Assembly (NCBI GenBank): GCA_012295275.1
Contig: CM022679.1
Span: forward strand, 16,058,001-16,122,000
DNA length: 64,000 nucleotides
Origin: Chrysomallon squamiferum
Lineage: Eukaryota > Animalia > Mollusca
Reading direction: 5' to 3'
Position 1 is the stretch's first letter. Each line of letters opens with the position of its first letter. Positions 5,725-58,504 of the stretch are shown here, in pieces. Both the position numbers and the translations under genes were made by a program. The notes below the pieces were generated by a model. That model worked only from the letters and a program-made list of their open reading frames with translations. It was not told the DNA's origin and did no database searches.

Positions 5725-5807
<83 letters not shown>

Positions 5808-9526: not shown

Positions 9527-10916
9527 ATGGTTTCCGCAATATGTCAGGTGTGTTTAGATCATTTCAAAAACCTCTTAAACCAGTTTTTAGGATTACAGTT
9601 TTACCTGTCTTCTTTCTGATTTTACATTTTACGATAAATATAAAATAATAATCTAATTTTTTCAGCAGCAGTTTGTGCATAAACTAATCCTACGGCAAAG
9701 ACATTGTGATTATCGGGTATACATGGTGATGATGATATTAATAAAATAATAATTAGCGATGATTATTATTTGTAATTTCAACAATGTATTGTATTTATAT
9801 CGATAGACATAAGTTAACTGTACTGGGGTACCATATTCTATATTAATCATTTAATATACTGGATTTTAAAAAAAAAAGGAAAAGAAGGTAAAATGTATTG
9901 TCTGACCTTAGCACGAAAACGTGACCTGTCATTTATTTATTTTTATTTATTTAGCTTCTTGCTAAAACTAGTAATATTAATTTTAGAAAAATGTATTAAC
10001 TGTTGTTCCTGATCAGCCAGCAATTTACGGCAAGAAATTATTTGAACAATCACAAAAAGCTGTATTTAACTATGCTCATGTAATTACTTGATAATAATAA
10101 TATTTGACTTATTTATATTTATTTTTGAATTGTAATTTTTTATTTTGTATTTTTTTGTATTTTTTTTAGTCACGATGCCAGCTACTTTCAACAATAAAAC
10201 AGCTGATGAGTCGTGGGTTGGCAACAAGTCAGTGTGCTTGTAAAAATATCCGTTCAGGAGTTGTAAAGGCTACAACTAGGGGAGATAAGCCTCTCACTTA
10301 CGAGCAAGCACTGCCACCATATCAGATTGGAGTCCGGAAATCATGGAATTCATGGAATACTTGTAAGTTCATTTAACACTATCTGAAACATTGGTCTTAT
10401 AAACATTAATTTTAAAGAGTTGATTCCACAGACCATCAGTATTTATACACATAATTAATTTAGCTAACATTCTGTTATTTAATGACAACAGAAGCATGTT
10501 GTCAAGTGTTTAAAAGTACTAATAAATAAAATTTGTTATACTTCTTTTTTTTTTTCTTAAACAATTCTAGTAATCATTTATATGATTTAGAAAGATTATT
10601 ATCATCATTTAAATTCTTTTCTTTAGCAAACTTAGCTGGTGAAGGACGACAGGCAGAAACTGTTGTAGAAGACATGTTTATTAGAAGATTCATAATGGGT
10701 ACTTGGCACAGACTGTTTTGTTCTGAAGTAATCATAAAACGACGTCATAACATGATAATCATTGCTGGACTTGTTTTGCAGAACACTGCACCACGTAAAC
10801 TCTATTTCTTATGGGGTTACTCAGAAGAACTTCTGTCACATTACTTAAAATGTCCCGTTAAACTGGAAATTCAAACTGTTACAGATAGGAGAGATATAGC
10901 TTTTAAATACATTTGA
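9527..10916 (+). CDS. MRPS24: Mitochondrial small-subunit ribosomal protein uS3m (MRPS24), 167 aa, 3 coding exons
   Basis: Exons 9527-9547, 10170-10362, 10627-10916 (GT-AG, 504 nt). Translation has KPLTYEQALPPYQIGVRKSWNSWNTSNL and EDMFIRRFIMGTW...EVIIKRRHN...YFLWGYSEELLS...KCPVKLEIQTV, characteristic of MRPS24. AATAAA at 11048-11053. Exon 1 is less certain than exons 2-3. Confidence 0.92.
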
Positions 10917-13656: not shown

Positions 13657-16600
13657 TTAGCTTTTGGTTCTTTGCTGCAAATACTGCAAAAATTCATAGT
13701 ACGACATGCTCGAATCAGTCCTGTCTTCAATCATATGTTCAAAAAACAGATATCGCATTTTGCTATCTTCCCTGGAAATAATTAAAAAACAAACAAGGGC
13801 ATTAAATTTATTTCTGAATATTAAGACCTTGAAAATAATTACACTTCGACACATTTTAAATAAAAATTAAAAAAGGCATTCAAATTCCAACAGTATAAAC
13901 AAAACAAAAATATTTTTTATCCAAATTATTTTATGAATTAAATAGAAATTTATAAAAATAATTTCAAGTAACAATTATTTAATACTAAACTTAAACTTAA
14001 AAAATAAAAATAGGAATTAAGCAGACAAGCTTTATTAGAGTGAGTATAAAACATTTCAATTTGTCATAAGTTTTGTAAGATAAAAACAACATTTTAATCT
14101 ACCTGAAGGCTGTGAGATAAAATGTGCCAGACAAGTTTAAAATGTGATCAACTCTGATTTCTTTACCTGATAATGTGAAATGTGGAACCACTAGGTGCAC
14201 TGTCTGTCAAATTGTTCACAAAGTTCCTCACATTTTCTGAAGTTGGGTTTTCAAGCTCTGGCAAATCAGTCTGAAACATTAAATATTAACAAGTTATATA
14301 ATATAAACTTACCATATAATGGAAAATCTCAAGCTTTTGCCAAATTCATGGAGAAAACATAAACATTATATTTGATGGTTATATTTAACAAATTTCTCTG
14401 TTATTTCATTGAAAACAAAGCCCTGCTATCTGTCCATGCCATGAGAGACTGCTGAGAAATTAAGAATATTTCAAGTCACATAACAGACAAAACGTTTCTA
14501 GTTGAACTCACCATGCCATCAGGTATGGACATAAAATTAGGTTTATCAAAGACCTGCTGACAGAAATGATCACTGACTGCGCCGCCCACCAACATCAACA
14601 TCTGTTCACTTGAGTCCATGAGGTACACCCCGTGACGGTCAATGTTTGCAGACGTCAGCTGCAACACTGGTGGTTTTGGAATGGTAACGCCATTCTTTGT
14701 TTCTGTTGGCTGAAACCAAATATCAATTATATAAAAGATATAAAATTAACCATGGCTTCGTATTTTTGGAATAACAATGACAACAACAATAATTTTAACG
14801 TAACAGTACTAAAAATTTGACAAAGATTTTTTAGTTTTTTTTAATCTTATTATTTCAGTAAACAATTGCAGAAAATCATCTGGAGTCTGAATGAAAATTG
14901 TTAAAGGCTGTTCATTTAAAATAAATAAGGCTGATAATTGTACCATAGAGCAATACTCACAAAAACATGAAAGAGAATATTTTTTATAAATGTTGATAAA
15001 ATAGAAATATTACATTTTACATTTTATTTCACTTTTCTTAATATATAGTCTTAACACATTAATAACAGATTCTGCAACAACTGTCTGAAAACTGCATCCT
15101 ACTATTTATAAATCTTACAAACCTCCTGTTCCAAGTTGTGTACTGGGTACAAGTTTGGATAAACAAGCTGCAGCAAGTAATTACATGGTAGTGACTTGAA
15201 CTGCTGCATCAGAAACACACGTTCATCCAGTTTGATAGACGGAGACAATCTAAATGCATTCTGAAAATAAAAATAAAAATTATTTACACTAATTTTTAAG
15301 ATTGTTATATTAATGACAGTTAAGATTCACCAGGCTTAAAAATAATTTTCAACTGGCTTTTTTGAGCTAATTGAAATAATATATACTTGCCTGACTATTG
15401 CACTTTCTAAATTTCAGTTTCAATTTCAATTATATCTATTATATTGGACTGTCTATTTTCATACTTTTAGCAACCTAATGCCTATCATATTTTAATCTTG
15501 AACACCTTGTGAGTTCTTAATATTTAATCCTGAATAATGCTAAATACATCTTTAGCAAGAAAATTGGTGAGACAAAGAAAAATAACACAAAACAATAAAT
15601 TTACAAACATTCAACAGATTTTCTAAAAAAAAAAAAAAGGAGAAACTTACACTTTTTATCAGAGCCAGAATAAAGAGAGGCATACATCGGAGAGTGAATG
15701 GGTAAAGAAGAGCTCCAACTCGCTGAGATGGTGCAACCTGGCCTGCATAGGCCTGCGTGGCATCAAGAGCTGCATTGATCATAGCATCTTTGGCATCCCC
15801 AACTGACGATGAAACTGATCTGTCAACAGCTGAAAAAGTAAAATACAAAATATGTGATAAATATAAACATTTAAAAATATCTGTTAATAAAGTGTCAGTA
15901 TCTGACTTTTTAATGAATTTTTTTTTGTTCTAAAAAGATTGTGCCAGAATTTAGTATTATAAGAAGAATAATGTGAAATGTATACACACCCATTTTGGCT
16001 AGTAGAGAAATAATAGCTTGTTGATCAGCTCCTCCAAACACATCAGAGATCTGACTAGTGACAGGCAAACACAAAGTATGTACACGTATCCGTCGTTCTC
16101 CTGCAAATGTAGTAAAAATTAAAACTGATATGCAGGTCAGAAGCATCTCAGAAATCCTATTTATTTCAAATATTTCAAATAGATAATAAACTAACATTTC
16201 TATAAAAGTCTGGTTTCACATGTGAACAAAAAGGGTTTTTTGAAAAAGGGAAAAAAAGAATATATTCCTTATGAAAAGAAATTGTCAGTCATGTAGATAG
16301 CCGTATGTCATTGAAAATGATAAACAATTTTACCTTTGCTAGATGTGTAGAGCAGAGCTGCCTGGAAACAGACCGTGGACACCTCAGTGAGGTTGTCCTC
16401 TATAGACATCTGCATTCCAAAACCTGCATCTGGGTTGATGTTAGGAAGTGAAAGCAAGTCAGTAGACCGTACAAAGAAATTGCCATGAAACGTGTGGATG
16501 CTGAGACCTATAAATAAAAATAACAAAAGATTTTTTTTTTTAAATGTATATATTAAACTTGGCAAAAATGATCTTTAACTACTCTATATAGTATTAGATT

Positions 16601-17576
16601 TTTACACCAAAAAATTTATTAAAGTAACTAAGAATAGTAATAAATTAGAGGCCTATTACTTTGCACTTTGATTTAAAAAAAATTCATGATGTTCATGTTT
16701 CTGCCTTATGATTAGGGATATAAAAATGCAAAAATAAAAAATTCTCAGAATTTTTTATAATTGCCCTTTTTTATCTTGTACTTCTGAGGAATGAAAAAAC
16801 CCCATCCAAAACACTAAATGGTTTCTTTACCTCTTGTACATCTAATTCTCATGACTGCTTCAAAACCAATTTTTCTTGTGAAGTATCGTCTCAGGTCCAT
16901 ATCAAACTTGTCAGCCAGGCTGGTGTTCTTCACAGTGTGGAACGAGGGGTAGTACTGAATACAGCCTCCCGAGTACTTTGATATACACGCTGAAACATGA
17001 AGAAAGAAAAATATATTTCTTAAAGGTTTTACTGATGTCAGTTATTTCAAATAAATATACATTTTTTTTAAAAACATCTACAGATTTTACTTTCAGACTA
17101 AAATACAAAAAAATACATAATAAACATAAAACTGTTATAAATAAAGTTACTGCTCTAATTGGACCGAAGTTTTTGAAAATGTTTACAAATTAGGTATCAC
17201 CAGAAATGTGCAAATAAACCAACCCAAAATATATATTTTATTATTGTATTATTAATTTAAAACACTTTGGTACACTGATCTTTCCACCAAGTTCAGCCTA
17301 CAGTTATAATTTACCAACTGTTTAGATGAAACATTGTTTTAAAACCACTGTATTTGGTCAGGTCCTATATTATATACCTAATGTGGCGAGATCAGCATAC
17401 TGGCCATTGAGCATGAACAAATCAACAGCTATCTGCTGTGCAGAAAAGTCAAGTGCTAACTTCTTGTAGAAATCTGTGGCTGGACCAAGATGAGGTATGT
17501 TCTGCAAAAAACATAAAAAATAATAATAATAATAAAAAATAATAATAATAATAATAATAATAATAATTAAAAAAAA

Positions 17577-17613
<37 letters not shown>

Positions 17614-20600
17614 CATAGTCATAATTATCATAACAATAAAATAAAATAAAATATTTTTTAACTAATTATATTTATATACAGAAATCAAATATTTTTAGTT
17701 TAATCATCTTCAAGCTTGTGCATTATTGAAAAAAAAAAAAAAAAAAGATACAGAAGTCATAAACTCATCATAAATATCTAAAATCACATTTGAAAGTATA
17801 ATCTCATATTTAACTCACTTTTCCTAGATCTTGTGTTGGCATCTCTCTTACTTGGAGAGCCCCTGGTCCAACTGTGGGTAAAACAGTCTGCATCACTGTC
17901 ACACGACCACCAGTAGCACTCTGTGGAAACAAAAACATAATAAATCATCTATGAAATACCTATCAAATAGCCTCATATCCACAACCAACTGTCTGTACAG
18001 TACACACTAGTATGTGTTTGTTGCTAATAACAACCAGCCAGTATATTCTGCCTACTTCCATGTGGCTGTTTTTGTTTTAACTTCTAATTTTACTTTTTTA
18101 GCAATAAATTAAGGCAGTGAAAAAAACAATTCCCTGACAGATTAATGAAATTAGTTTTGATTGATTTAGTTTTGCAGCTTCTCTAATTATTTAATGATTT
18201 TTATTTCTTTTTAAGTTTATATGAATCAGAAGTGATAATAATAGAGAAGTGTCATCTTCGTGCATTTTCATAAATTTATAATTTGATTGTTATACTTTTT
18301 ATCAGCAATCTATAATTCTGGTACTAAACAAAACAACAATTTAGAAGTATTCAAAATATATTAAACCAACAGAGATAATTCTAGGCTTTTATCATAGTTA
18401 ACACTGAAAACAATTTATTTACCATTAATTTAAAGGCAGCTTGCAAGGCAGCTCCCAAGGCACTTCCAGTTTCGCCATTCGATTCAAATAGAGTAGGCAG
18501 CTGAGAAAGTAGATCAATAACCAAGTCTTTAGACTCATGAAGATTCACTAACAAATTGTCTGGACATGGCAGGAAAACATCTGAAAAAGTATTTATCATT
18601 TTTAGTAATTTACTACAAAATTTAATGAAAGAAAAGAAAAAATTCATTACAATAAAAGAAAAGTAGACACTGACAAATACTTATCAAAAAAAAAAAAAAA
18701 AAATAAAATGAACTGACAGTATCAGCTAAAAGAATGAAAGGTCAATAAACAGGCAAAATTTTATTAAAACAGCTTCAAGGTTAGCTTTAACAAGCAAAGC
18801 AATATTCACAAAATACTGAAAATATAGTTCCTTATTTATATGTGACCAACCTCAAAATAACTAGCTAGTAATAACATCCTAACCTATTACAATTATATTT
18901 TAAAAATATTTTATTTTAATATTTGTTATTTAAGTAATTATTTAATTATATTAACCTTCTAGGTCTGGGACTATCATCATCTGTGGCTGGGCTAGACCCT
19001 CTTCCAGACTGAAGAAGTACAGGAATCGATCATAACCCACAAAACCAATCTGTGTTCGAGAATCTCCTGGCAGTTTATCCAGTTCATCCAACAACGTCTG
19101 ACAGAATAAACTTAAATAACCTGATTTTTAAAAAACAGAAAAACATTCATCAGTTCTCAGATAAAATATTCTCTACTAACAAGCAATTCCATGAAGCAAT
19201 ATTTCTTAAGAGTTTATTTTTAAAATATTGCTAATAGCCTTGGTTATTTTCTTAATATCAGAGGATGTAACACTGTAAGAATAAATATATTGTGTAATGA
19301 TACATATAAACCATTATTTGAATTTCATACAGGAAACAATTTAGACAGTTACCTTTTTAACATATAAGATTTACCTGTTTCAACGGCATTAAACGAGACA
19401 TCTAACAAAAATAAATACACAGCTGGCTGAGGAGGTCTCAACTGAAAAACAGAACAGAACACATTTACAAATATAAAATGTAATTATACAGTATAGTTAA
19501 ACTTATGTACATTTATTGATTAAATTCTAAATATTTAACAAATAAATAATAATAATAATAATCAGAGGTCCCTAAATATGATGCACCGTAAAAATAGCAT
19601 ATTCTCACAAAATATTAAATAAAAATATCTTAAATAATTTAAACAGTGATATATCACCATTATATTTTACATGGCTCTGTTTCAGAATAATATTTAAATA
19701 TAATAATGATAACACTTTTTTTGTTCTATTAATAAAAAAAAATGCACATAAACATAATATTTATGATAACAATAGGGAACTGATTGTAACAGTTCAATGG
19801 TATACCAAGAATGATGAATCCTGCAAACTACCTTTCATTATGCCATGATAAGCTCTACAACCTACAGACAATTTCATTAAAGCTCACAAGAGCAGGTTAG
19901 GAAAAACAAATCTCACCATATATTCAGAAGGTGCAATAAACTCGATTGTGGAGGACCTCACTTCAGGGCGTCGTTGTGGGTCGCCGTATGTTTTACTTAC
20001 AGGATCAAATGAAAACTCCTCTGGCACTAGAAATTAAATAAAATATTTTTAAAATATGCAATTCAAAAATCACTGAAAGAATCAGTTATATTTACAAAAA
20101 TCATTCTAAATATATTATATTAATATTGAAATAAAGTCATGTATAGTATTTTTATTTAAAATACTTACATTCATTAACCCTGTAACAAAGATTGCACTTC
20201 CACCTTCGCTGATCAAGGAAATGAACAAAAGGGTTGATGTAGGTTCTACATGAGCGACATCGCACTATCACACTTGACTGAATCACAGGCAATTGCTGAA
20301 AAATATAAAACAATACAAACCCTAAAAGTCTGCAAACAACAGAACGAAACCATACTAAATGAAGTTACAATTAAAACAACAGCTTTAACATTAATACACA
20401 TTGTAATCTAATCCTGAAACTGATTCCTAATTCATACAAACGGACAATCCAGAAGTGTAAGCTCAAAAATATCTCTCATAAAATGTCACTGATCACTTTT
20501 GGTATCAAAAACAAATATCATATCATTATGTCTACCATTTGAAACAGTAGAATAGCCCAAATAAAATATTAATAAAATTAAATTTCTGTCTAAAATATAC

Positions 20601-23600
20601 ATATGCATTAAGTATTATACAGGTTTGTGACTTACTAAATTTGTAACTTTATCATCTTACCTGCCAAAATATAACAACAACAGTATTTCCAAAGTGAAAA
20701 TACTATTAATAAATATGCATGTTTAGCTGTACTTTGTATTTAATTACAATGGTATTGAGAACTGAAACAAATGCTCAGATACAGCTTATCAGGAAAACAT
20801 TGAATTACTTAATACTATTTCTCTTATTCTTCGTTTTTAAATGTTACAATGAATTGTCTTAGGTATTATAAACAAAAAGCCTAACTACATAATCACTTTC
20901 AAGTAATTATTTTGTGTTAGTTATCAAACTATAATATGTTTTTATTTATTTATTATAATATATCTATATTTTTAATCTTTGACAATCTGAGGTATGACCA
21001 ATGTTCAAATTACAAAACATACTAAAACTGCTATTTTTGTTTGTTTTCTTTTTTCCTTCTTTTTTTTCTTCTTTTTTTCCTAATTTATCTTAGTTTCCTA
21101 TCAGAAAAGACTAGTACCAGTAAATCACTTGGTAGTGTGCTACATTTATTCAGGCTTTTTGCTACCATCCTGACAAGTACATTATATTAATTTTAAGTGG
21201 AGATCATTTATCTGTTATTTTCATGTTAATTCTAGACAGCGGCATACAATGCCTTACATAACAAAAAGAAAACTGGTAAACATAGAACACAATATTCTCA
21301 ACCATGCCAACAAAATTGGCATCCATCATTTTCACCAGATTAAACAAACACATACAAAATAATATCATTATGGTACATGATTTGCAACATGGACAGATTA
21401 AAATATTTTCTTTTTGAAAAAAGCTAATGAGAAGTTTAAACTTTAATGAATTGTAAAGTTTGTAATCCTGTTGGACTGTTTGCCAAACAGCTTTCTTTAT
21501 TCCATAAAATTCAAAACTTTATTATATATTTTTGTATTTTCAATAACAAAAAAAACCTAACAACATAACAAGTGTCATTTGTTCATCTTTAAAAGCAAAT
21601 GCTATTACATAATGTTTCTAGGTTAAGTCAGTGTAAATATATTTACACTGAAAATGAAACCAAACTAGCAGGTCATTAGTGACAAGGTATAACCTAATAT
21701 TTATACATCAGTCAAATAAAATTCCACTGATAATTTACACATCATAAGTTATTCTAGAGTTTCTTTCATCTTTCAACATAAAATATCAGTTAACATTTAT
21801 ACAATAACAGCTTAAAATATAATTAATTTCCTTCAGTATGAAGAAAAAGGAAAAAATAAATAAAAACCTGCAAAAGTGTTAGAAAATTTCTTATATACTG
21901 AAGAAAATATTAATAATAAGATAAAATATTTTATTTAAGGTGGATTCTGTAAATTAAATTTACTGATGACTTTCTGTTAACTGCTCACTGTAAATGCAGC
22001 ACTAAAATAATAAAATAAGTTATAATTCAAAGCTTTGTTTCAGTCCTCCACATAACATACATGTACTTAAATACTCAAGTTCATATTTTCAAATAAACAC
22101 AAGTAAAAATAATTTTAATGAAAATAATGAGGTGTTTTTGTTGTTTTTTTTCTTCTTGTTTTTTTTTTTTTTCAAGGGGTGTAAATATTATTATTATATG
22201 CATATATACATATATTTGTTTTATTTTTGTTGTATTTATTTACTTTCTATGAACATTCAAAAGATTTATTTCAGTTTTAAAGATAATGGAACAATAATAA
22301 TGTAACAAGGAAACAAAAACAATAATTGTATACAATACATACACAGTAAAGTGTATTTTATCAAATCTCATAATACCAGTTTACAATGTTTGTCCCACCA
22401 CAGATGTTAAATATGAAGGGTATATGATAAATAAAACTGGTGTAAAAACAAGCCTGACATGGTACACTTTACTATGTAAGTATAGATAAATAACAATTAA
22501 AACTACAAAAGACAAACAAAAATTCTTTTTTTAAATATAACTGTACTCCATTGGGTTTGATTCTGACAGTAACCTTTTAAATGGTTAACCGTGGAAAGCA
22601 AAAACTGCTATTCTTCATGAACTATCTAATTCAGTAATACTATTCATAAATAAATAAACTATAATATTCAACTGACAGACAGCTGATAATAGCTCAAGTT
22701 CATTATTCTTCATGCTAGTATCAATTTATTTGAATAACACACTAACAATGTGAGCAAGACAAAAAAAAGTACAGCAAACACATGCATTACAAGTGAAAGA
22801 CTTCAGGGAAAAAATAAATACTTGACAAAAGAAAAACATTTTATTGATGTGACAGCCAGACTGCTTACTACAAAAGCTATATATGTTATAATTGATTAAT
22901 AATAATGAGCATGCCAGGTGTAAAGTGCAAGACAAAATATCAGTTCTGATAGCAGTTTGAGCCACGTAAAAATAAAAAGGAATTCAAAACCAACAAACAT
23001 CTTGTAAATTTTAAAATAAGTCAGCTGAATATAACAAACTTTTATTTGTTATTTAACACTTAAGAAATAACAAAACTAAAAAGTTATTATGTATAAACTA
23101 AAACCAAAAGATATCAAAAAATAATAATTATAAAGTATAGAAAACAATTCTTTTTTTTCTTTCTTTCTTAAACACAAAAGATTGTTAATAAAATTAAATT
23201 TGTTTAGCATAAACTAGATTTGAAAACCTCCAGACAGTTTTCATCAGTTGTTGCTTCTGTTTCTTCTTCACTTCCTTCATCTGACTTTTTATCATAACAA
23301 ATATTTGGCCCCATGTCATCTTCCCAATATTCCTTCTGATCCATAGGTACATCGTTGTCAATGTCACCATCTAAATCTTGTGTCAAAGCTGACGGGGACA
23401 CATTATCATCCTCCTCACTCTATTTGGTTGTTATATTCAGAAAATACAAATCCTTTCTAACATCTATTACTTACACATTAAATTGTGGGGTTGTTTGCTA
23501 TTTTCTCTTCTTTTTTTTTTTTGTAAAAATATCTTAACAATTTAAATGGAAATAAAAAGCATGGAAATGAATTATTCAAATAAACTTCAAAATTATACTC

Positions 23601-26600
23601 ATATTCCATTACAGTTATTTCATGTACATTTGATTAAGTCTACATGCAACTGAGGAAATGCTAATTATTTTTAAATGTTTAAATAATCATGCCATTTCAG
23701 ATTTTATTATACTGTCATCAATAAATTAGCAGTTATCTCAGTAATAGCTAACTAAATTTTTTGCTGAATGGTTTTAGTTATCTTCAGTGAAAAAAAAAAT
23801 ATTTATTTTAAAATTTAAGAGCATTTCTTATGTATCAAATTAATTTTTAGAACTTAAAATTGTAAATCACTGATGTTTGTTTTTATTTCCACATTAATAT
23901 TTAGGAACATTTTAACCAAAAAATGCTTTGGAAATCAAATTAAAATAATACCAAAACACATGATTTACGACTTATTCATTTTTCTTTTATTCCATCTTAG
24001 TTTAAAATGTGTCAAACAAACACTATAATTTTTCAGTGTTAGAATATAATTAACAAATTATTCAATGTTGTTGCTGTTTTGGAATTATGTGTTATTTTTA
24101 TATGAAATTCCTGATTTTTCAAAACATTTACTAAGAATATTTTATCTACTTCCATTACCAAAACATTGATTTAGATGCATTATCAATCTTTCACCCAATA
24201 TATAAGACAATTTTTTATTGCAAGAGGGTACAAATTGTTTCAATAACCAGATACAGAATTTTAAGATGAAACCATATGCCCAAAGAATACACAATAAAAT
24301 TTAAATTTAAGAAGATATAAAAGATGAATGATAAATCAAATAAAAATATTTACTGTGAATGAACAGCCATGACCTTAACTTTTCTAACAAAGACAGGAGA
24401 TAATTCTGTTTGCCAGGTAATCTTTAACTTAATTTAAACAAACTGAAATGGTACTTACAAAATCATCAGGATAAGTCTGTAAAATAATGTTCAGTGTTTG
24501 CATTTCATAATTTACAGAGTTGATATATGTTTATTGGTTACTAACTGGAACACAATGGGTCAGGTTGAAGTGTATCAATGAAATAATGTTACTAATACAT
24601 AAAAGAAAAAAGGCAAGAAACAAAGCAAAGATATATGGAAGCATGCAACTAAGTTGTTATTGGAAAAATAAAAGAAACAATTAATTGTAGGATATGAAAT
24701 CAGTTAAGAATTTATAACCGATATATATAACTTGAATTATATGTACAGATTTGTAGGAGCCTAGCAAGATTTCTGGCCAGTCATGTGAATGATGTTTTCC
24801 ACATACAGACATCACCTTCTGGGTTAGTTTCACATTACAATTAATAGCCACCAACCTTTATATTTAGATAAGGCATCAAGCATCACTTACTTCATACAAT
24901 GAAACTTTTACTGATTTTATTCAATGTCTCACAGAAAGCAGAATTACAACTAAATCTTAAGTCTTACTGGTCTATTCTTTTTACATTATAATTCAAAAAC
25001 AAATAATAAATTTCATTTGAAATAAACTGCAATATGTGGACTATGAGTTTAAGAAATGACAGTTAAATTCACATTTAGCTCATGGTGTTACTCTTACAGG
25101 GTTATATTCTTAAAAATTTAACAGAATATATAAACTACATTCTTGCAATAGCATTTATTTGTGTAATTGCTTTATAGTTTATTAATACTATATTAATTCG
25201 TCTGTTGAATGCATTCATTTACTTTAAAAAATAGAAATATATATTTTGTTGTTAGTCAAATAAGCAATCATGTACCATAATATTCTACTAAATTATCACA
25301 TTCAAAATGTAACAGATGAATACTCACAGATAAATCTTTAAAAGGATGAATTAATATTCCAAGTGGCAATCTCGATTTGCTCAACAGAGATGCAGTCTGT
25401 GGAATGCATCTTAAAGTACACCTAAAAATTCTGTGGAGAAAATGTTTTTATTTTTTTATTATTATTGTCATACATGAAACTCAAATTACAAGGGTGAATT
25501 AGACTGTTTACAGAGGTGAAAAATTAACCAAAATTTGAAATGATTAATTTCTCAGAACTTGTAATAGAGAGATAAATATAAATAATATATTATGTTTCTT
25601 TTTTAACTGTTGCTATATGACATTTTGTAATCAGAATATGATAATTATAAACTGATATTTGTTTAAATACTTAAAATTTGATTTTGTATCATTTGTTGAC
25701 ATAAATAAATAAAGCTGTATCAATTAATATGCTTTTAAAAACACATACTCTGGATTGCAGTTAACATTTTTGAAGTCGTGCTGCAAGGTAGGTTTAACTG
25801 TTTCCAGACCATCAGGTGGTATCAATGTTTTCTCCTGCATTACATTCACTGTTCTCTCAGAATCCTGGAAAGCATAACATATCAAGTTTTCAAATAAGAA
25901 ACAACCTGGTTCTCCTGTTCTTTATCTTAAAATCATCTTTTAATAAAAAAAAAAAAAATTCTTACATAGTCAAATAAAAACAGATCTTTCAATCATCTAG
26001 CAAATGTGACTATATTATATTAAATTATCTCTTTGTTTTATTCAGTAAAAAAATGGATACAAAAAATTTGGCAATATACTAATATGAGATTAACTTATTT
26101 TAATAAAAGGAGAATTTATTTTCAGAAAGATTTTCACAAAAAATCTAACATGTTTTAATCAATTTTTCTAATACTAAAAACCAAAAAAAAAACCAAAAAA
26201 TAAAACAGTTCATAGAACATAAACAATAAGTGGATTATCTTGAAACTGAATGCATACAGTACTGATTAGAACTTTGTATCAGAAACAATACCACAAAATA
26301 AACAATAATGGGATTAATCAAAAACATAATGTGGTACCAAGGAAAAAGTATTGATTATAAAATTGAATTATTCAATCTTAAACATTTCTTGTATTTAATT
26401 TTATCAATTAAACAATGTAGAGACTAAAAAAATATCTCTGAACTAAATAATTTTTTGGATTTTGAGTTATATACAATTCTTGGCTATCTATTATTTAAAA
26501 TTCAGTGTATATTTTTTTTTTTTTTTTTTTTTATATAAAAATTTTAATTTAAACTTGTAACCAAAAATATATAAAGAAAAGTCAGCAGCAAAAATCATGA

Positions 26601-29600
26601 ACTGAAATTTTACAAAGGTCTGGGACTTAAGAAACGAAAAAAAAAAAAAAAAAAAATATCACACTGTTATACTTACAGTTTTATAAACAAATATTTAAAA
26701 ATTCAGACTTACATTGACGCCAAGTTTTCCAAATTCATATGCCATAGAATTTACACTGTTTTGCTGTGGCATCATTTTCTGCTGTCCAGGCTGAGGAAGA
26801 TTAAAGCCTCCTTGATTTACTGGTGGAAGCATTGGACCTGCTGATGGAGGCACATGACCTGCTGATGGAGGTACATGACCTGCTGATGGAGGCACATGAC
26901 CTGAGGTTGGAGGTACTGGTCCAGCCATTGTCCCCATAGGCCCTGACACAGACCCACTTTGTGGTTGGTTACTATATGGTTGTACAGGTTTCATCTGATT
27001 TGTCTGGTATGGTTGAGTTGCTGGTACTGCAAAATTCTGTGTTGGTGGAACTCCATATGTTGGTTGTGGATTCTGTCCATACATTCCTGGCTGGGGAACA
27101 GGTGGGCCACTCGTAGGTGGATAAGATCCCTTTAGACAGAAATTAAAATAAATTAATTTAAAATATTTTAAAACATCCTTTATAAGACACACAAAAAAGA
27201 TACGATTCAAGAATGATAATTAAGCAAATGAATCAGTGATAAAATTATCAAATAAAAAATGCAGTTCTAACTGTTTGAAAATAAATAACATTTCTTAAGT
27301 ATAATACTATACTTCTGCCGTATCTAAAAGAATGTAACAAAATATTATATCAAATTTCAACCATTACCATTTGTGGATACTGGCGCCTGCCAGTAATTCC
27401 CACATTCTTCTGACTTGTCTCCGTTTGTCCCGGTGTTGGTGGCTGCTTGGCAATCCCAGAAGATGGAGGCATGCCCGATCCACCTAAAGACAACAATTAT
27501 TCATTAAAATATTTGATATTTAAAAAAAAAATGTTTTTAAATAAACACAAATGACACATTAAAAATATGCAACATTAACTGAGCCAAAAAGAACTATTGA
27601 TTTATTCAAGACTATTATGTAAACACTGAAGTATAATTATAAATACTGGGCTGCTAATCACATGCACATCTGCCCCGTTAGAGAACATACAGTTTCTAGC
27701 AATTAAGGAAATAATAATTTCTCAATAAAACTAGTCCACCAGAAAAAACAATAAGACAAATTTCAAAAAGTAACATTTCACAGCAGTGCTGTTTGTATGT
27801 TGCTATTTTTGTTTTGTTTGTGTATGGTCTTTTTCAATATCCGATTAGTTAATCACATGGCTTAAAGAATTTTACAACTCTGATATTTCTAAAATCACTG
27901 TGAAAATTAAAGATAAAAAATTTCTACTTTTAGATTTTATTGTGTTACAATTGCATAATAAGAGTTACCTTGAGACGTTGGTGTGAACTGACCCTCCAGT
28001 GCGTCAATAGACTGCATGCTGACTGGAGACGGTGCTCTTGAAGATTTCTGGGAAGGTGGGTCTAAAAGAAATATTATTTAGAAAAATACTAACAATAGTG
28101 TGTTATACTTATAAATTCTTTCACAAACTGAAAATTTAAACTAATTTAATTTTATTATCAGCTGTATGACATAACAAAGTTTCATTAGCCAGAAAAATAA
28201 ATAAGTAAAAGACAAGCAAAACAAATGCATGGGAAGTCACACATGAAAAAGAACAAATTAAACAAACAGATCAGAATGACAACTTCAGAGATCTTGCTAC
28301 ATACTATAAAAGATGATGGCATGTTTATTTGGACTGGCTGTGATACCATTTTTGGGGTCAGCTGTTCACATGTCTTCTCCTTAAACAAAATAGATGTAAT
28401 CCAAAGCGGCAATTGTTGTATTCTTTGAAATCTGCTGGTACTCACATACCTGTTAATCAAGGCTACTATAGCAGACACTATATGGCTAAATTACTGCGCA
28501 TGAATTTCAGTGACTGCTACAAATGTTTTTAACATGCAATTGTATAAAGATACATAAATAACTTTTTAAAATATTATCTTTGTCATTCAAAAACAGATAT
28601 GTGCTTTATCCACACACTATAAAAATAATTATTATTAACAGTGCATCACCAACTCATAAATATTCATTATCACACTGCATGGCAATCTTCAACTTTCAGA
28701 GCAATAAAAACGATCTTACATTTCACACACACAATATATATACAAAAGGTTACAAAACAATATGTATATATATTATATGTATAAAATAAAAAATAAAAAA
28801 CTATATTATTTCGTAAAGAATATAATTCACAGAACAACCAGACAAAATTCGCCAACAATAGATCTTTGATTTTACTTAATTGCAAATAAAATAAACTTGT
28901 TAATAGTTAATGCATTTGATGCAATTATTAATAGGCATATTTTTGACAAACAAGTAATTTGAACATTGTTCAAAGTACTTGTACCCTGGAAATTTTCTGT
29001 ACAATTCCTTTGTTTAACTTGCACGAGATACACTGATTCCCACCGTCCCTTTCACAAATGCTGGGGAGACCACTGAACTTATCCAATCATTAGAGGTCCA
29101 TCACTAATAATATATTACACTTCATTATTTTTTCTTTTAATATTTTGTGCACTTCACTTTAACAAACTACTAGCTAAAAACTCTTTCACATGTGCTGCAA
29201 TTAACTGTCATGTGCATTCGCACTCTTTAAAGTATTCCATCATATTGCACCTTAAAAATAAACTTTTACACAACACACAAAAGTAATTTCTTTATGTATA
29301 TACTCTCCATATCAACCAATTCTAAATATTATACATTTTATAAATAGTACATTATTAAAATAGAAGAAATTCAAGAATAATCATCCCAAAAATAAAATGA
29401 TAATCACAATACGAAAATTATCAAATATGCCTGATTCAATTGAAAACAATTTGAAAATGACACAGTAAATAACCAATAAAAAATTATAATTAAAATATTT
29501 AAAGGTAGGGATTTGTTTATTCTCATATTTATTCTCATATTTATTCCAGAATTCATGCTGAAATAAAATGGAAATATTTACTTAAGAAGAGTTTAATTCA

Positions 29601-32600
29601 TTTCATTTCTTCAAAAAAGCAATAATTTGATATTTCATGCATTCAACTATAGGTACCAGACCAATTATCCGGCGTCATGAAATAAGGAAAGACCAGAAAA
29701 CAGAAGTGTTTTCCTGATGCTATTTTCATAATTTGCACATGTGGGTATTGTCCGCACCAGACCAGTACTACCCTTTCAAGCCACATGGAGTTCATTCACT
29801 TGCCATATTGTTTACGTGTGAAGTCACCACAGTTGTGTATCAAAAATTTTCTTTAAGTTTTTAATTTTAGAATATTTATGCCTAATTATTACGTATTTAG
29901 ATGCCTTGATACCAGAAAACCGGAATGCCTCAGGCCCCAAAGAGTCTGGATAACTGGTCCAGTACCTGTATAAATTTATTGATAACCCCAAGTTTTTCTA
30001 ATGCTAATAGTGATTTTAAATTAAACACAAAATATATGTAATAAAATGAATATCCACTGTGTGTACCTGAACTATTAGGCGTGAAGCCTGGGGTCAGTTT
30101 CAATGAAGCACCAACCTGATGTGAGTACTGACCATGGCCATGGTAAGGGACAGGTAATTCATTTGGACGACCTAGGTGACCAATAAACAACATGCAAATA
30201 AGCACTGACAAGAGAAAAATCACACGAAGTGAATGGATAAAAGGTATAATGCAATTTAAAAACTTGATAAATTCACTGCAATTGGGTTAGGGTTTTTTAA
30301 CAGCAAGATCAATCATTTAAATTAATTCAAAACCATTCTTCAATATTTCAAGTTTAACAAATAACAGTTGTAATTTATATATTATATAACTGCCTGCCAG
30401 TTTTATCCTGTTTAGTCATTTATGTTAAAAAAATATATTTTTTTAATGAATATGTACATTTTGTACACCTTATAATTCATTATGCACAAAATACATCTAT
30501 TTCTACAAAATTATAATTTAATTTTTTTTTTTTTTAAATTTAACATAGAAAGAAACTCAAAAGAGAAATCAGTCTACTCAACCTGTGTAGATTTACAAAA
30601 GGTCACTAACATAATTAAAATTATCTTTGACATACCGTGACTGGTACACAAAACATTATCATTAATCAACAATCCTGACAGTATTACAATGATAAACTTA
30701 AATTATTGGAAATTAACCAAATTACTTCAAATTTAAAAAGATCAGATGTATTTTACAATTATACTGATAAGATATATATAGAAAGAAAAATTTTTCCTCC
30801 TAAATAACAAGGTCAGACAAGCTTTGTATTTAATAGTTATCACTTGTTAGTAATGATATTTTAAAAAAACCAAACCAAAACAAAATTCTTCTTTCCTTTT
30901 TCTTTGATTCCACACAACTGTTCATATGATTTAGAATTTTTTTTTAGTTTAGGAGATATAATTTCTTATATATATATATATATACACACACACAAGTAAA
31001 TTTTAAAATTTAAAACATTATATAATATCAGAAGTTTATAATAATCAACTGCAAAATTTTTTTTTTTTTTTTTTTTTTTTTCTCTATTACATTTTAGGCT
31101 TATTAAAATAATAATATTGCTACTATTACAACCAACTGCAATTAATTTCTCAATTTTAAATTTCTTTCTTTTTTTTTTCTTAAAAAATTACTGATTCAGG
31201 TTTATTAAAATAATAATATTGTTACTTATTGCATTATGACTTATTTTATTAGTAAATTCCAAAGATACCAATAAAAAGAAAAAAATTCATAAACAACCCA
31301 AAATATAAAAGAAATGACACTCACTCGTTCCCTGCACTGGCGGCATCATGTTAGAAGGGGGCATATTTGGTTTGGGTGGACCACTACCTGGGACAGTCTG
31401 ACTAGGTATGGCTTGAGGAGGAGGTGGTGGCGCTGACACATTACTTGGAGGGAAGCCTGCCTTTGGAGGTGGAGGAAAGCTGCCACCCTGTGGAGGTTGA
31501 AAATTTGAACTTTGTGATGGTGATGGACCAGTCATTGTGCCTGCAGGTGGTGGTGGCATTCGTGTCTGCTGAGGCATTCCTCCTGGAGGAGGCATGTTGC
31601 TCTGTGAAGGGCCTGCAGGCATCAACGGCACAGGTGACATTCCAGTCTGTTGTTGTGAAGTAGGAATTTTACTATCCTGAGAATTATCCATCCTTCCAGT
31701 ATTAGGTGCCAACCCACCTTGAGGGGGGTTTTGTTGGTGCATGAACCTGTTCACTGATGTGTTCATCTGATTTTGACTTGCAGGAGCATTCCCATATGAT
31801 GGTGGAAAATTTGAAGGCCCATTCATAACTGAATTAGAAAACTGAGGCACTGGCTGAAACTGTCCTCCAGATGATCCTACAAAGCCAGCTCGGTTTGGAA
31901 TCTGGTTAGCTGAAGTCTGTGGAGATGGTTGATAAGCTGTTGCTTGATTTAGAAAGGGTGGCCTTGTTCCATCAGTAACTGGAGGAACAGAGCCTAGCAA
32001 TGGCGGTCGTTGACCTGGTGAGGAAATGCCATTTGCTGGTGGGGGATGATATTGACCTGGAGGCTGGTTTTTAAATTGTTGTGGCATATTCACTGCCTGC
32101 TGCAGCAGCTGCTGAGGATGCTGTCCAGGAACAGGAGAAGCATCCAAAGGGGATCCATTTGGATGCATATGAGGACTGGGCATTCTCTGAACACCTGCAA
32201 CAATTTAAAACAAAAACAAAATAAATATCCATTGCTCAGCCAATACATTAATTCAAATATCAGTATTAAACATTTACTATGATACTTTATTATTAGCAAA
32301 AAAAATGCTCTCTGAAAACAGTTACAAAATCATTTAGGTTTTATTTTATTATCACAATAGCTTCAGTTCTTTAATATAAAAGATAATTATAATCCATGTT
32401 AAGTACTGATTTCTTCAACAATATGTCTTCTACCAGAATATGACAATTACAAAAAAAAACACATGTTAAAATTCAAACAATGTTTATGTTGCAATAATAA
32501 TAATAAATTAAACGGTTTTGTAAAATAATTTATTTTTAAGGAATATTTGTATCAACATTAGACTGTATAACTTATTAAATATAAATGTGAGACATGAAAA

Positions 32601-32844
32601 ACCACATTACGATACACTGTGCTATATCACACTACAGTGATTAACTGAGTGATTCAGACATTCTGTCAGTGTGACAGTCAATTATTAATGGTTTAATAAA
32701 TCAAACAAATATTATGTACTTTAAATATAAAATAATGAAACAATTGCGATAGGTACCTGACACTACCGGTGTATGAGGGAAATCGCCTTGGCCCTGCTGA
32801 ATTTGGTGTTGCTGGTAATTCTGAGATGAGAGAGGATCGGCCAT
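13657..32844 (-). CDS. SEC24B: Protein transport protein Sec24, SEC24A/B subfamily (COPII cargo adaptor), 1277 aa from 22 core exons
   Basis: Exons (minus) 32844-32757, 32194-31325, 28061-27969, 27483-27368, 27129-26713, 25864-25749, 25430-25328, 20295-20169, 20026-19917, 19441-19375, 19120-18956, 18580-18423, 17920-17819, 17501-17378, 16989-16831, 16507-16334, 16100-15990, 15829-15651, 15260-15123, 14709-14512, 14270-14167, 13771-13657 give a continuous 3834-nt frame. Pro/Gln-rich N-terminus, zinc finger [14 protein letters not shown]...WKCNLC, trunk [19 protein letters not shown], beta-sandwich [13 protein letters not shown]...[13 protein letters not shown]...[10 protein letters not shown]-terminal [14 protein letters not shown] versus B cannot be resolved; probably the pre-duplication A/B orthologue. 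Confidence 0.95.
23228..23419 (-). CDS. Candidate SEC24 alternative exon encoding a 64-aa acidic insert
   Basis: caaatag|AGT...GAG|gttttc, 192 nt, phase 0/0, inside the phase-0 intron 20296-25327. The open frame begins exactly at the acceptor (in-frame TAG). 24 of 64 residues are D/E. Splice sites are weak. Confidence 0.6.
29650..29968. mobile_element. Non-autonomous DNA transposon (MITE), Tc1/mariner-pogo type
   Basis: Imperfect terminal inverted repeats TAGGTACCAGACCAATTATCCGG and CTGGATAACTGGTCCAGTACCTG (18/23 complementary), flanked by TA at 29648-29649 and 29969-29970. 319 bp, no coding capacity. Confidence 0.7.
30067..30171 (-). CDS. Candidate SEC24 exon (35 aa) in the N-terminal low-complexity region
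   Basis: cacctag|GT...TCA G|gtacac, 105 nt, phase 1/1 matching the phase-1 intron. GC-richer island encoding (S)[34 protein letters not shown](D). Confidence 0.65.
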
Positions 32845-33943: not shown

Positions 33944-37079
<3,136 letters not shown>

Positions 37080-41962: not shown

Positions 41963-42011
<49 letters not shown>

Positions 42012-43481: not shown

Positions 43482-43515
<34 letters not shown>

Positions 43516-44089
43516 ATCGAAACTTTAAAAATGGTAGGAATTATTTTTAATAAAGGTCCATCTTTTCAAAATTTATGGAACTTTCGAGTTTCAGCCTTAC
43601 AAAAGAACAAAATAAAGAGACCTGAGAAACGAAAGGAAAAACAAAACAAAACAAAAAGACACGAACAAACTAATTAAATAACAAAAAGATGTAGAAACCT
43701 TCAACCAAACAGTAAATCCTCTTCGGTCTTCTGGGTGACCGTCCCGTTCTGTGGGGTACTCCCAGTCAAAATCCAACCCATCGAAGTTGTACTTCCTGAG
43801 AAACGCCAAGGCGTTAGTATTAAACCTCTTCATTTTGTCACCACTGCTAGCAATCTTAGTGAAATGCGTGGACTTTGCATTCCAGCCACCCAAAGCTAGA
43901 ATAACTTTCAAATTAGGATTCACCTTTTTCAGAGACATGGTTCGGTTGTATCTGAAATAAATATATAAATGGCAGATGCTATGAAATAGTATGAAATGTT
44001 GTAATTTTATAAAGAACAGACTTTGGTTTTCAACGCAGAATATTATTGGACAGATCTAGGCTATATATTGTTCTGATGTACTTCATCTT

Positions 44090-48218: not shown

Positions 48219-58504
<10,286 letters not shown>

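What the first reader, a model, noticed from the sequence alone, without database searches (positions are those of the whole stretch)
23204..23419. Hidden acidic exon in SEC24 just upstream of the zinc finger and cargo B-site
Seen: in the 5-kb phase-0 intron between ...IHPFKDLS and [17 protein letters not shown], a 192-nt phase 0/0 AG-GT block encodes [64 protein letters not shown] (24 D/E versus 3 K). The frame opens exactly at the acceptor. Established: Sec24 zinc-finger arginines in the IVRCRxCR segment help form the basic B-site that binds di-acidic and LxxLE cargo signals. Inference: inclusion would place many (D/E)x(D/E) motifs about 10 residues from those arginines, which could act as a built-in pseudo-cargo that retunes cargo selection. 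Alternatively the weak donor (gttttc) is read through to the stop at 23204-23206, with AATAAA at 23041-23046, giving a truncated isoform of the N-terminal region plus an acidic tail.
Basis: partly seen in the sequence, partly recalled or inferred. Interest (0 to 1): 0.72.

Follow-up and report, generated by a model that had tools for sequence, protein, structure and literature searches.

The report
Spliced acidic exon pair in SEC24
A 192-base acidic exon and an overlooked 18-base microexon are spliced into part of the SEC24 coat-protein mRNA of a snail close to Gigantopelta aegis; they would add a 70-residue acidic loop just before the cargo-binding zinc finger, which likely adjusts cargo selection.

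Summary
Positions 23228-23419 (minus strand) form a 192-nt, phase 0/0, AG..GT-bounded open block encoding 64 residues (13 D, 11 E, 3 K). It lies in the 5032-nt intron just before the zinc-finger exon of a SEC24A/B-type gene.

It is a real cassette exon. In 1 of 4 RNA runs (X1) a 252-nt contig joins the zinc-finger exon (20295) to 23228 and runs exactly to 23419. It then enters an unpredicted 18-nt microexon (24459-24476, TYPDDF) and continues into the upstream exon at 25328. The skipping junction 20295>25328 occurs in 4 of 4 runs. Contig depths suggest about 45% inclusion in X1.

No contig supports the proposed read-through/truncated isoform.

The microexon is conserved. Gigantopelta aegis RefSeq isoforms carry TYPEDP at the same junction. 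Abalones, a limpet, scallops, a clam and a planthopper carry other short, mostly acidic inserts there.

The 64-residue exon has no detectable relative and is absent from all annotated isoforms inspected.

The parts
23228..23419 (-). 192-nt alternatively spliced acidic cassette exon (64 aa, SEEDD...ENCLE, net charge -21). Acceptor ...AACAACCAAATAG|, donor GAG|GTTTTC.
   Evidence: Sequence and frame. X1 contig of 252 nt (depth 18.9) covers exactly 23228-23419 and is joined on both sides. It is the GC maximum of the intron.
24459..24476 (-). 18-nt microexon encoding TYPDDF, flanked by ttattttacag| and |gtaagt. It is spliced between the upstream exon and the acidic exon.
   Evidence: contig positions 223-240 of the 252-nt record map here. 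A 48-nt contig (depth 16.6) joins it to 25328-25357. Sequence. The G. aegis isoforms X1/X3/X4 carry TYPEDP at the same junction.
25328..25430 (-). Upstream constitutive SEC24 exon ending ...IHPFKDLS. Its donor TCT|GTGAGT is used both for skipping (to 20295) and for inclusion (to 24476).
20169..20295 (-). Zinc-finger exon ([23 protein letters not shown]...). The Pfam zf-Sec23_Sec24 match starts at its residue 10. Its R12 and R17 align with yeast Sec24 R230 and R235.
20296..25327 (-). 5032-nt host intron of the skipping isoform. In the inclusion isoform it is split into three GT-AG introns: 24477-25327, 23420-24458 and 20296-23227.
   Evidence: The other 15 core introns inferred are 142-502 nt long.
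23041..23206 (-). Present in the sequence, but no RNA contig shows them in use.
   Evidence: for the sequence. In one search the bin 23150-23227 has depth 0 in X1, X3 and X4. Absence from contigs is weak evidence.
13660..32844 (-). The whole SEC24A/B-type gene that hosts the exons.
   Evidence: tblastn of G. aegis Sec24A-like X1 (P0009): core exons 69-100% identical. Pfam zinc finger, trunk and beta-sandwich match individual exons.

Best explanation
The 192-nt block at 23228-23419 (minus strand) is a real alternatively spliced cassette exon of a SEC24A/B-type gene, spliced in series with an 18-nt microexon at 24459-24476; together they would insert 70 mostly acidic, predicted-disordered residues nine residues before the Sec23/Sec24 zinc finger, where they likely act as a tethered electrostatic modulator of the arginine-rich, carboxylate-binding cargo surface (B-site region). 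Shown: both splice patterns exist in RNA (skip 25328>20295; inclusion 25328>24476, 24459>23419, 23228>20295). All introns are GT-AG, the insert keeps the frame with no stop, and the same junction carries short acidic alternative inserts in other molluscs. Follows from the sequence: the insert has net charge -23 (-2 for the microexon, -21 for the acidic exon), three CK2-type S/T-x-x-D/E sites in the long exon, and weak splice sites next to a GAA-rich stretch, which is typical of regulated exons. Inferred only: that the isoform is translated, and that the acidic loop competes with or repels carboxylate-type export signals or the membrane at the basic face of Sec24. My odds: real spliced exon 0.95; selected, translated isoform about 0.6; electrostatic modulation of the cargo or membrane face about 0.45; specific pseudo-cargo occupancy of the B-site about 0.2.
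For: RNA evidence:
- in X1 the joint 20295>23228 has intron ends CT..AC on the plus strand, which is GT..AG on the minus strand, and the contig depth is 18.9. The skip joint 20295>25328 occurs in 4 of 4 runs.
- the same 252-nt contig consists of 30 nt identical to 20266-20295, then 23228-23419, then 24459-24476, then 12 nt identical to 25328-25339. A 48-nt contig (depth 16.6) joins 24459-24476 to 25328-25357. The 60-nt skip contig has depth 23.5. The two paths sum to 42.4, against 38.9 for the upstream-exon contig, giving about 45% inclusion.

Sequence evidence:
- the microexon has a strong acceptor and donor.
- exon-like GC (0.40), the maximum of the intron.
- the donor GTTTTC is weak, whereas 14 of 16 constitutive donors are GTR. 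Its polypyrimidine tract scores 0.45 against a mean of 0.69. The host intron is 5032 nt against 142-502 nt for the other 15.
- net charge -21, and purine content 0.88 at nt 145-168.
- AF2 gives no secondary structure, mean pLDDT 56.8.

Comparative evidence:
- alternative inserts at the identical junction in G. aegis (TYPEDP), Haliotis (EDEEDG/EVEEDG), Patella (EIESDN), Pecten/Mizuhopecten (M/ICDDFGENG), Ruditapes (GLSVADQV) and Lycorma (DVPTVDDKADE).

Link to the cargo site:
- zinc-finger exon residues 3-41 align to yeast Sec24 221-260, so R12 and R17 correspond to R230 and R235.
- PMC4831881 (passage read) names yeast R230A, R235A and L616W as cargo-binding-site mutants, citing Miller 2003.
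- PMC5464768 (passages read) states that the B site recognises carboxylates through clustered arginines.
Against: - Inclusion is seen in only 1 of 4 RNA runs. All four come from one study, and all are assembled contigs, not reads.
- The 64-aa exon is absent from all 4 annotated G. aegis isoforms and from every SEC24 protein inspected.
- It has no relative in the protein search of longer proteins, in Pfam, in the Atlas or in a metagenome scan. Conservation of the long exon is therefore unshown.
- It contains no strict DxE and no LxxLE-type motif.
- The key B-site arginines named for human Sec24a (Arg750, Arg752) are not in the zinc finger.
- The RNA runs carry a non-synonymous difference (M36L).
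- There is no protein-level evidence.
Confidence: 0.45

Rival explanations
1. Lineage-specific exonisation without a selected function. Intronic sequence with weak splice sites is included in some samples, happens to be open and in frame, and gives a tolerated or unstable isoform.
For: - No homologue was found.
- It is not in the annotated G. aegis isoforms.
- Both splice sites are weak.
- An ORF of this length is common by chance in this intron: 259 of 500 shuffles.
- Inclusion contigs occur in only 1 of 4 runs.
- The RNA carries a non-synonymous variant.
Against: - Inclusion is about 45% by contig depth in X1.
- The exon is a multiple of three and open, and is the GC maximum of the intron.
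- Its acidity matches the conserved alternative microexons at the same junction in other molluscs.
- It is spliced precisely downstream of the conserved microexon.
Confidence: 0.3
2. The exon is real and translated, but the acidic loop works as a docking or phospho-regulated module (for example CK2-type sites, aromatic-acidic motifs) for another partner, or for coat assembly or turnover, and not on the cargo B-site or membrane face.
For: - There are three S/T-x-x-D/E sites, and aromatic residues sit within acidic runs (EYWEDD; DDF in the microexon, a motif shared with the scallop insert CDDFGENG).
- No canonical B-site motif is present.
- A 64-70-residue disordered loop can reach far from its anchor (inference).
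Against: The conserved inserts at this junction are only 6-11 residues long in other species, so they can act only locally, next to the zinc finger. No partner is known or was tested.
Confidence: 0.15
3. The weak donor is read through to the stop at 23204-23206 and the transcript is polyadenylated after AATAAA (23041-23046). This would give a truncated protein made of the N-terminal region plus an acidic tail.
For: The stop and AATAAA are present, and the donor is weak.
Against: The only contig covering the exon stops exactly at 23228 and continues in the zinc-finger exon. No contig of X1, X3 or X4 covers 23150-23227. Contigs can miss rare forms, so this is weak negative evidence.
Confidence: 0.03
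4. It is not an exon of SEC24 at all. It could be an assembly artefact, a transposon or dispersed-repeat fragment, or an intronic C/D-box snoRNA (sub-threshold SNORD49-like match at 23228-23299).
For: Rfam SNORD49 scores 24 bits with E 0.021 in the 5.6-kb search. The RNA libraries also contain unspliced intronic contigs at depth 2-9.
Against: - The junction contigs have canonical GT-AG introns and exact exon ends.
- There is no second copy of the coding block in the 64-kb window.
- The snoRNA match is below the gathering score of 37, and its C box (UGAUAA) and D box (CUGG) are imperfect.
- The whole genome could not be searched.
Confidence: 0.03

Closest known systems
Gigantopelta aegis Sec24A-like isoforms X1, X3 and X4 (XP_041363024, XP_041363026, XP_041363027)
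   Same: Orthologous gene: core exons are 69-100% identical. A 6-residue alternative microexon lies at the identical junction HPFKDLS|QLPVIQ (TYPEDP there, TYPDDF here).
   Different: In the annotated G. aegis isoforms the microexon joins directly to the zinc-finger exon. None of the 4 isoforms carries the further 64-residue acidic exon. The G. aegis genome itself could not be searched here.
Short alternative inserts at the same junction in other animals (RefSeq models): Haliotis EDEEDG/EVEEDG, Patella EIESDN, Pecten/Mizuhopecten M/ICDDFGENG, Ruditapes GLSVADQV, Lycorma DVPTVDDKADE, gadid fishes VTL
   Same: Same insertion point, nine residues before the zinc-finger domain. The inserts are alternative (isoforms with and without them exist) and, in molluscs and the planthopper, mostly acidic.
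   Different: They are 3-11 residues long, against 70 here. They are database models only. I found no paper that describes them.
Human SEC24A/SEC24B and yeast Sec24 crystal structures (e.g. 3EGD, 3EH1, 1M2V, 1PCX)
   Same: The zinc-finger exon is near-identical to human SEC24A (E 1.3e-21). The B site binds carboxylate-bearing signals through clustered arginines (PMC5464768, passages read).
   Different: None of the solved constructs has an insert at this junction, as the alignments are continuous from QLPV. No structure or assay exists for an acidic-insert isoform.
Acidic D/E-rich disordered regions that autoinhibit basic binding surfaces (e.g. those discussed in PMC10250230; abstract seen in the listing)
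   Same: A tethered, strongly negative, disordered segment lies next to a basic ligand-binding surface. This is an analogy of mechanism.
   Different: The established cases concern DNA/RNA-binding proteins. Nothing of the kind has been shown for a COPII cargo adaptor, and it was not tested here.
Sec16 alternative splicing controlling COPII transport (PMC4980449; abstract seen in the listing)
   Same: A precedent that regulated cassette exons in COPII components tune ER export.
   Different: It involves a different protein and domain, and a mammalian T-cell context.

Membership tests
SEC24A/B-type COPII cargo adaptor (host gene) | Sec23/Sec24 zinc finger, trunk and beta-sandwich domains in order, with close identity to named Sec24A/B proteins | tested here: met
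   Pfam zf-Sec23_Sec24 (54.4 bits), Sec23_trunk (53.5 bits) and Sec23_BS (50.8 bits) match single exons. tblastn of G. aegis Sec24A-like maps along 32844-13660. The zinc-finger exon matches human SEC24A/B chains at E about 1e-21.
Alternatively spliced cassette exon | Both inclusion and skipping junctions present in RNA, with canonical splice sites | tested here: met
   The skip 20295>25328 occurs in 4 of 4 runs. The inclusion junctions 20295>23228, 23419>24459 and 24476>25328 occur in X1 only. All are GT-AG. The data are contigs from one study.
Alternatively spliced cassette exon | Frame-preserving and open, so that a full-length isoform results | tested here: met
   18 + 192 = 210 nt, phase 0/0, with no stop in either exon.
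Alternatively spliced cassette exon | Conservation of the exon in related species | tested here: inconclusive
   The microexon is conserved in G. aegis and has analogues in other molluscs. The 64-aa exon has no hit and is absent from annotated isoforms. No relative's genome could be searched, and the representative-protein search never left the queue (10 tries).
B-site cargo signal / pseudo-cargo (DxE, LxxLE, C-terminal hydrophobic class) | Presence of a canonical DxE or LxxLE/LxxME motif | tested here: not met
   Strict D-x-E: 0. [LIVM]xx[LM]E: 0. There are only 9 loose (D/E)x(D/E) triplets.
B-site cargo signal / pseudo-cargo (DxE, LxxLE, C-terminal hydrophobic class) | Physical binding of the segment to the Sec24 B site | not testable with these tools
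   The complex prediction queue was full at every try. No joined isoform sequence could be folded.
C/D-box snoRNA (SNORD49-like) | Rfam gathering score reached and intact C (RUGAUGA) and D (CUGA) boxes | tested here: not met
   24 bits against a gathering score of 37. The boxes read UGAUAA and CUGG.
Dispersed repeat / transposon fragment | Further copies elsewhere in the genome | tested here: inconclusive
   blastn and tblastn found no second copy of the coding block in the 64-kb window. The whole genome is not held.

The most novel reading that the evidence does not exclude
Alternative splicing at the HPFKDLS|QLPV junction is an old, conserved switch in molluscan (and some insect) Sec24A/B. 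It places a tethered acidic pseudo-ligand beside the zinc-finger arginines of the cargo B-site, so that cargo selectivity of the COPII coat is set by splicing. This snail lineage has enlarged the switch from 6 to 70 residues by adding a second, 64-residue acidic exon.
Probability: 0.15. Interest if true: 0.75.

Novelty: new member of a known kind. Interest (0 to 1): 0.45.

Why it matters
Sec24 is the subunit that chooses which proteins leave the ER. Known regulation of its cargo sites comes mainly from paralogue choice.

A regulated, in-frame acidic insert 11 residues from an arginine that aligns with yeast cargo-site residue R230 would be a new, splicing-based way to retune cargo capture. Three observations make this a concrete hypothesis:
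- The same junction carries short acidic alternative inserts in several mollusc classes.
- Those inserts exist only as database models, and my paper searches found no description of them.
- The hypothesis can be tested with recombinant Sec23/24 and standard budding assays.

The case also shows that a sequence-only reader can find a real unannotated exon, while missing the 18-nt microexon that links it to the upstream exon.

Tried and rejected
- Whole-genome repeat check: no genome is held for this window.
- Homologues of the 64-aa exon: the search for homologous proteins with 'longer' found none among 26 candidates. Pfam found 0 families. The metagenome scan found 262 pattern matches but none confirmed. 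The ESM Atlas gave no usable hit. Earlier scan findings gave nothing.
- Complex prediction of the G. aegis Sec24 core with the exon peptide was never accepted because the queue was full. There is therefore no result either way on binding.
- Run X5 (kind unknown) gave only pieces of about 20 nt belonging to unrelated contigs, so it is no DNA control.
- Runs X2-X4 show no inclusion contig. Contigs drop minor variants, so this does not show absence.
- No contig joins the microexon directly to 20295, so the microexon-only form annotated in G. aegis was not seen here. This too does not show absence.
- Read-through to the stop and AATAAA: no contig supports it.
- The SNORD49-like match is sub-threshold and was rejected.
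- Repeats in the intron are only T-rich low-complexity families.
- AF2 of Haliotis rubra isoform X4, which carries the 6-aa insert, places the insert (residues 434-439) in a stretch with pLDDT below 50. The whole model has mean pLDDT 59.2, too poor for any geometric claim.
- The paper PMC4334704 is not held. The original B-site papers (Miller 2003, Mossessova 2003) were not read, so the 'B-site' label for R230/R235 is partly recalled.
Full report
**Observation**

On the minus strand, 23419 is preceded by ...aaccaaatag and 23228 is followed by gttttc. The frame reads 64 residues (SEEDD...ENCLE), then VFKSSLC and a stop at 23204-23206. The in-frame triplet just upstream is the TAG of the acceptor. 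Composition is D13, E11, K3 and net charge -21. AATAAA lies at 23041-23046.

The flanking exons read ...IHPFKDLS|gtgagt (donor after 25328) and ...ttcag|[17 protein letters not shown] (acceptor at 20295).

**Is it more than chance?**

ORF length alone is not. An ORF of 71 codons or more appeared in 259 of 500 block shuffles of the intron, and the real intron has two longer ones on the sense strand.

Composition is more telling. The block has GC 0.40 against 0.24-0.27 for the three intron pieces. It is the GC maximum of the 5032-nt intron: 0 of 4458 non-overlapping 192-nt windows reach it, and the mean is 0.255 +/- 0.038. Constitutive exons of the gene have GC 0.33-0.49.

**Host gene**

tblastn of Gigantopelta aegis Sec24A-like isoform X1 (P0009) maps along 32844-13660 on the minus strand. 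Core exons are 69-100% identical and the proline-rich N-terminal region is much more diverged. Pfam finds the Sec23/Sec24 zinc finger, trunk and beta-sandwich on single exons.

The window therefore comes from a gastropod close to, but not identical with, G. aegis. No whole genome is held for it.

**RNA evidence**

One search found four RNA runs (X1-X4) from a single study, kept as assembled contigs, plus one run of unknown kind.

Laid on 19800-25700, all 4 RNA runs carry the skipping junction 20295>25328, with depths 23.5, 14.2, 11.9 and 36.3. X1 alone carries a junction 20295>23228, with GT..AG intron ends on the minus strand. This junction sits on a 252-nt contig of depth 18.9 whose aligned part is exactly 23228-23419.

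Laying 23150-25460 resolved the other end of that contig:
- Its positions 223-240 lie on 24459-24476.
- Its last 12 letters equal 25328-25339.
- Its first 30 letters equal 20266-20295. I compared both loose ends by eye.
- A separate 48-nt contig (depth 16.6) joins 24459-24476 to 25328-25357.
- A 60-nt contig (depth 23.5) is the skip path.

The lengths 252 = 30+192+18+12 and 60 = 30+30 are what a k=31 assembly graph gives for two alternative paths. The two path depths sum to 42.4, close to the 38.9 of the upstream-exon contig. Inclusion in X1 is therefore roughly 45%. This is a rough figure, because each contig has only one depth value.

**The overlooked microexon**

Positions 24459-24476 encode TYPDDF between ttattttacag| and |gtaagt. 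The inclusion isoform therefore uses three GT-AG introns: 25328>24476, 24459>23419 and 23228>20295. It inserts 18+192 = 210 nt, or 70 residues, in frame.

A 340-nt X1 contig (depth 3.61) is spliced 25328>24476 but runs on unspliced to 24149. An X3 contig (depth 3.5) crosses the acceptor at 23419 unspliced. Both look like splicing intermediates or background.

No contig crosses 23228 into the stop/AATAAA region. The truncated-isoform alternative has no support, although contigs can miss rare forms.

**Splice-site context**

Protein-guided mapping of 16 core introns gave these results. Two of the 16 were confirmed by RNA joints.
- 15 introns are 142-502 nt long. Only the host intron is 5032 nt.
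- 14 of 16 donors have GTR and 16 of 16 acceptors have YAG.
- The mean pyrimidine fraction at -22..-3 is 0.69.
- The acidic exon has donor GAG|GTTTTC and a pyrimidine fraction of 0.45, equal to the weakest constitutive site.

Its 3' part is GAA-rich, with purine content 0.88 at nt 145-168. Weak sites next to purine-rich sequence are typical of regulated exons; this reading is an inference.

**Conservation**

The four annotated G. aegis isoforms differ at exactly this junction. X1, X3 and X4 have HPFKDLS-TYPEDP-QLPV and X2 has no insert. None has the 64-residue block.

*First sample.* One search examined 125 proteins: the best 120 of 1934 hits plus earlier ones.
- 108 have the standard spacing.
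- 4 have HPY in place of HPF, with the standard junction.
- 2 lack the zinc-finger motif.
- 11 are non-standard:

| Protein(s) | Insert or feature |
|---|---|
| G. aegis, 3 proteins | TYPEDP |
| Haliotis rubra, 2 proteins | EDEEDG |
| Lycorma delicatula | DVPTVDDKADE |
| Unnamed Logan protein | ELS |
| Unnamed Logan protein | SENNQANS |
| Lepidogalaxias | VTP |
| Potamilus | two extra residues |
| Lutzomyia model | anomalous |

*Cluster members.* Twenty further clusters were inspected.

| Taxon | Insert | Members carrying it |
|---|---|---|
| Haliotis asinina | EVEEDG | 1 of 3 |
| H. rufescens / H. cracherodii | EDEEDG | 7 of 9 |
| Patella vulgata | EIESDN | 2 of 3 |
| Pecten maximus | MCDDFGENG | 3 of 4 |
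| Mizuhopecten | ICDDFGENG | 2 of 4 |
| Ruditapes | GLSVADQV | 3 of 4 |
| Lycorma | DVPTVDDKADE | 2 of 3 |
| Gadid fishes | VTL | 6 of 14 |

No insert was found in the clusters of Littorina, Babylonia, Dreissena, Saccostrea, Octopus, Mercenaria, Liolophura, Ostrea, Watersipora, Lineus, Periplaneta or Andrena. Apart from the anomalous Lutzomyia model, no insert longer than 11 residues was seen anywhere.

The junction is thus a recurrent site of short, mostly acidic alternative inserts. The 64-residue exon has no detectable counterpart:
- no hit among longer proteins;
- no Pfam family;
- no confirmed metagenome locus;
- no Atlas hit;
- no second copy in the window.

The exhaustive representative search and any search of a relative's genome could not be run.

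**Position relative to the cargo site**

The Pfam zinc finger starts at residue 10 of the downstream exon. Residues 3-41 of that exon align to residues 221-260 of full-length yeast Sec24 (1M2V chain B). If the start of the alignment is ungapped, the two arginines of VRCRSCR correspond to R230 and R235.

A passage of PMC4831881 names yeast R230A, R235A and L616W as cargo-binding-site mutations, citing Miller et al. 2003. That these define the 'B site' is my recollection of that uninspected paper.

Passages of PMC5464768 state that the B site binds LxxLE, DxE and C-terminal hydrophobic signals through carboxylate recognition by clustered arginines. For human Sec24a they name Arg750, Arg752 and Tyr496.

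**Properties of the insert**

AF2 of the 64 residues alone gives mean pLDDT 56.8 and no secondary structure. In a model of Haliotis rubra isoform X4, the 6-residue insert (434-439) lies in a stretch with pLDDT below 50, between two short strands. That model is too poor (mean pLDDT 59.2) for any geometric claim.

The long exon has 9 loose (D/E)x(D/E) triplets, no strict DxE, no LxxLE-type motif and three CK2-type sites.

**Interpretation**

*Shown.* This is a real, frame-preserving pair of cassette exons. It is included at a substantial level in one RNA sample and skipped in all four.

*Inferred.* The isoform is probably translated and carries a 70-residue, strongly negative, disordered loop anchored nine residues before the zinc finger. 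Related species place only 6-11 mostly acidic residues at this point. Inserts that short can act only locally, so the target of regulation is most likely the neighbouring basic, carboxylate-binding and membrane-facing surface.

*My odds.*
- Electrostatic modulation of that surface: about 0.45.
- Specific pseudo-cargo occupancy of the B site: about 0.2.
- Neutral, lineage-specific exonisation: about 0.3. This is the main rival.
- Partner docking or phospho-regulation unrelated to cargo: about 0.15.
- Truncated isoform: about 0.03.
- Artefact, repeat or snoRNA: about 0.03. The sub-threshold SNORD49-like match (24 bits against 37, with imperfect boxes) was rejected.

**Novelty**

I found no paper describing an insert at this Sec24 junction. 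The full-text searches were: 'Sec24 + alternative splicing + microexon' (1 irrelevant paper); 'Sec24 + splice variant + COPII + cargo' (39 papers, 12 listed, none on this site); and 'Sec24 + autoinhibit + acidic + intrinsically disordered'.

PMC9691287 (passages read) reports other SEC24C/D splicing events that cause frameshifts. The microexon isoforms already sit in RefSeq as models.

The 64-residue exon is a new, probably lineage-specific member of an ordinary class, the alternative cassette exon. Its interest comes from its position and charge, not from a new kind of mechanism.

Noticed in passing
window 4627-7115 (-): An Arf-family small GTPase gene lies about 6.5 kb downstream of the last SEC24 exon on the same strand (Pfam Arf on two exons). 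Its [18 protein letters not shown] motif looks like SAR1 to me from recall. Two COPII components would then be direct neighbours.
   Followed up: partly
window 20296-25327: The intron hosting the alternative exons is 5032 nt long. The other 15 core introns inferred are 142-502 nt.
   Followed up: yes
window 23228-23299 (-): A sub-threshold Rfam match to C/D-box snoRNA SNORD49 (24 bits, gathering score 37) lies in the sense orientation and ends exactly at the exon's donor. The boxes are imperfect (UGAUAA, CUGG). It is probably chance in purine-rich sequence.
   Followed up: partly
window 23314: The RNA contigs of X1 and X3 read A where the window has T on the plus strand. This changes codon 36 of the acidic exon from ATG (M) to TTG (L). 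It may be an allele or strain difference.
   Followed up: partly
window 24752-24943: This is the second GC peak of the intron (0.36). Low-depth RNA contigs lie nearby without joints. Long loose ends at 24990 in X1 and X2 suggest a repeat shared with other loci.
   Followed up: no
proteins P0175 (Mizuhopecten X3), P0187 (Lineus X3); P0198-P0207 (gadids), P0054: The same junction also shows single-residue (loss of Q) and 3-residue (VTL/VTP) isoform differences in a scallop, a nemertean and fishes. These probably reflect alternative acceptor or donor use.
   Followed up: no
window 10530-10913 (+); 35093-37076 (+): Neighbouring genes: mitochondrial ribosomal protein S24 (Pfam MRP-S24, 152 bits) and dynactin subunit 5 (Pfam DCTN5, 103 bits).
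   Followed up: partly
window 41593-44055 (-) and 51110-54746 (-): Two chitinase-like GH18 genes lie in tandem, with FDGLD(F/I)DWE(Y/F)P motifs and Pfam Glyco_hydro_18. Threonine-rich ORFs lie nearby at 40563-40856 and 48960-49358.
   Followed up: partly
window 24149-24476 (-): An X1 contig (depth 3.61) is spliced from 25328 into the microexon acceptor but continues unspliced past its donor. It is a probable splicing intermediate, which would mean the upstream intron is removed first.
   Followed up: no
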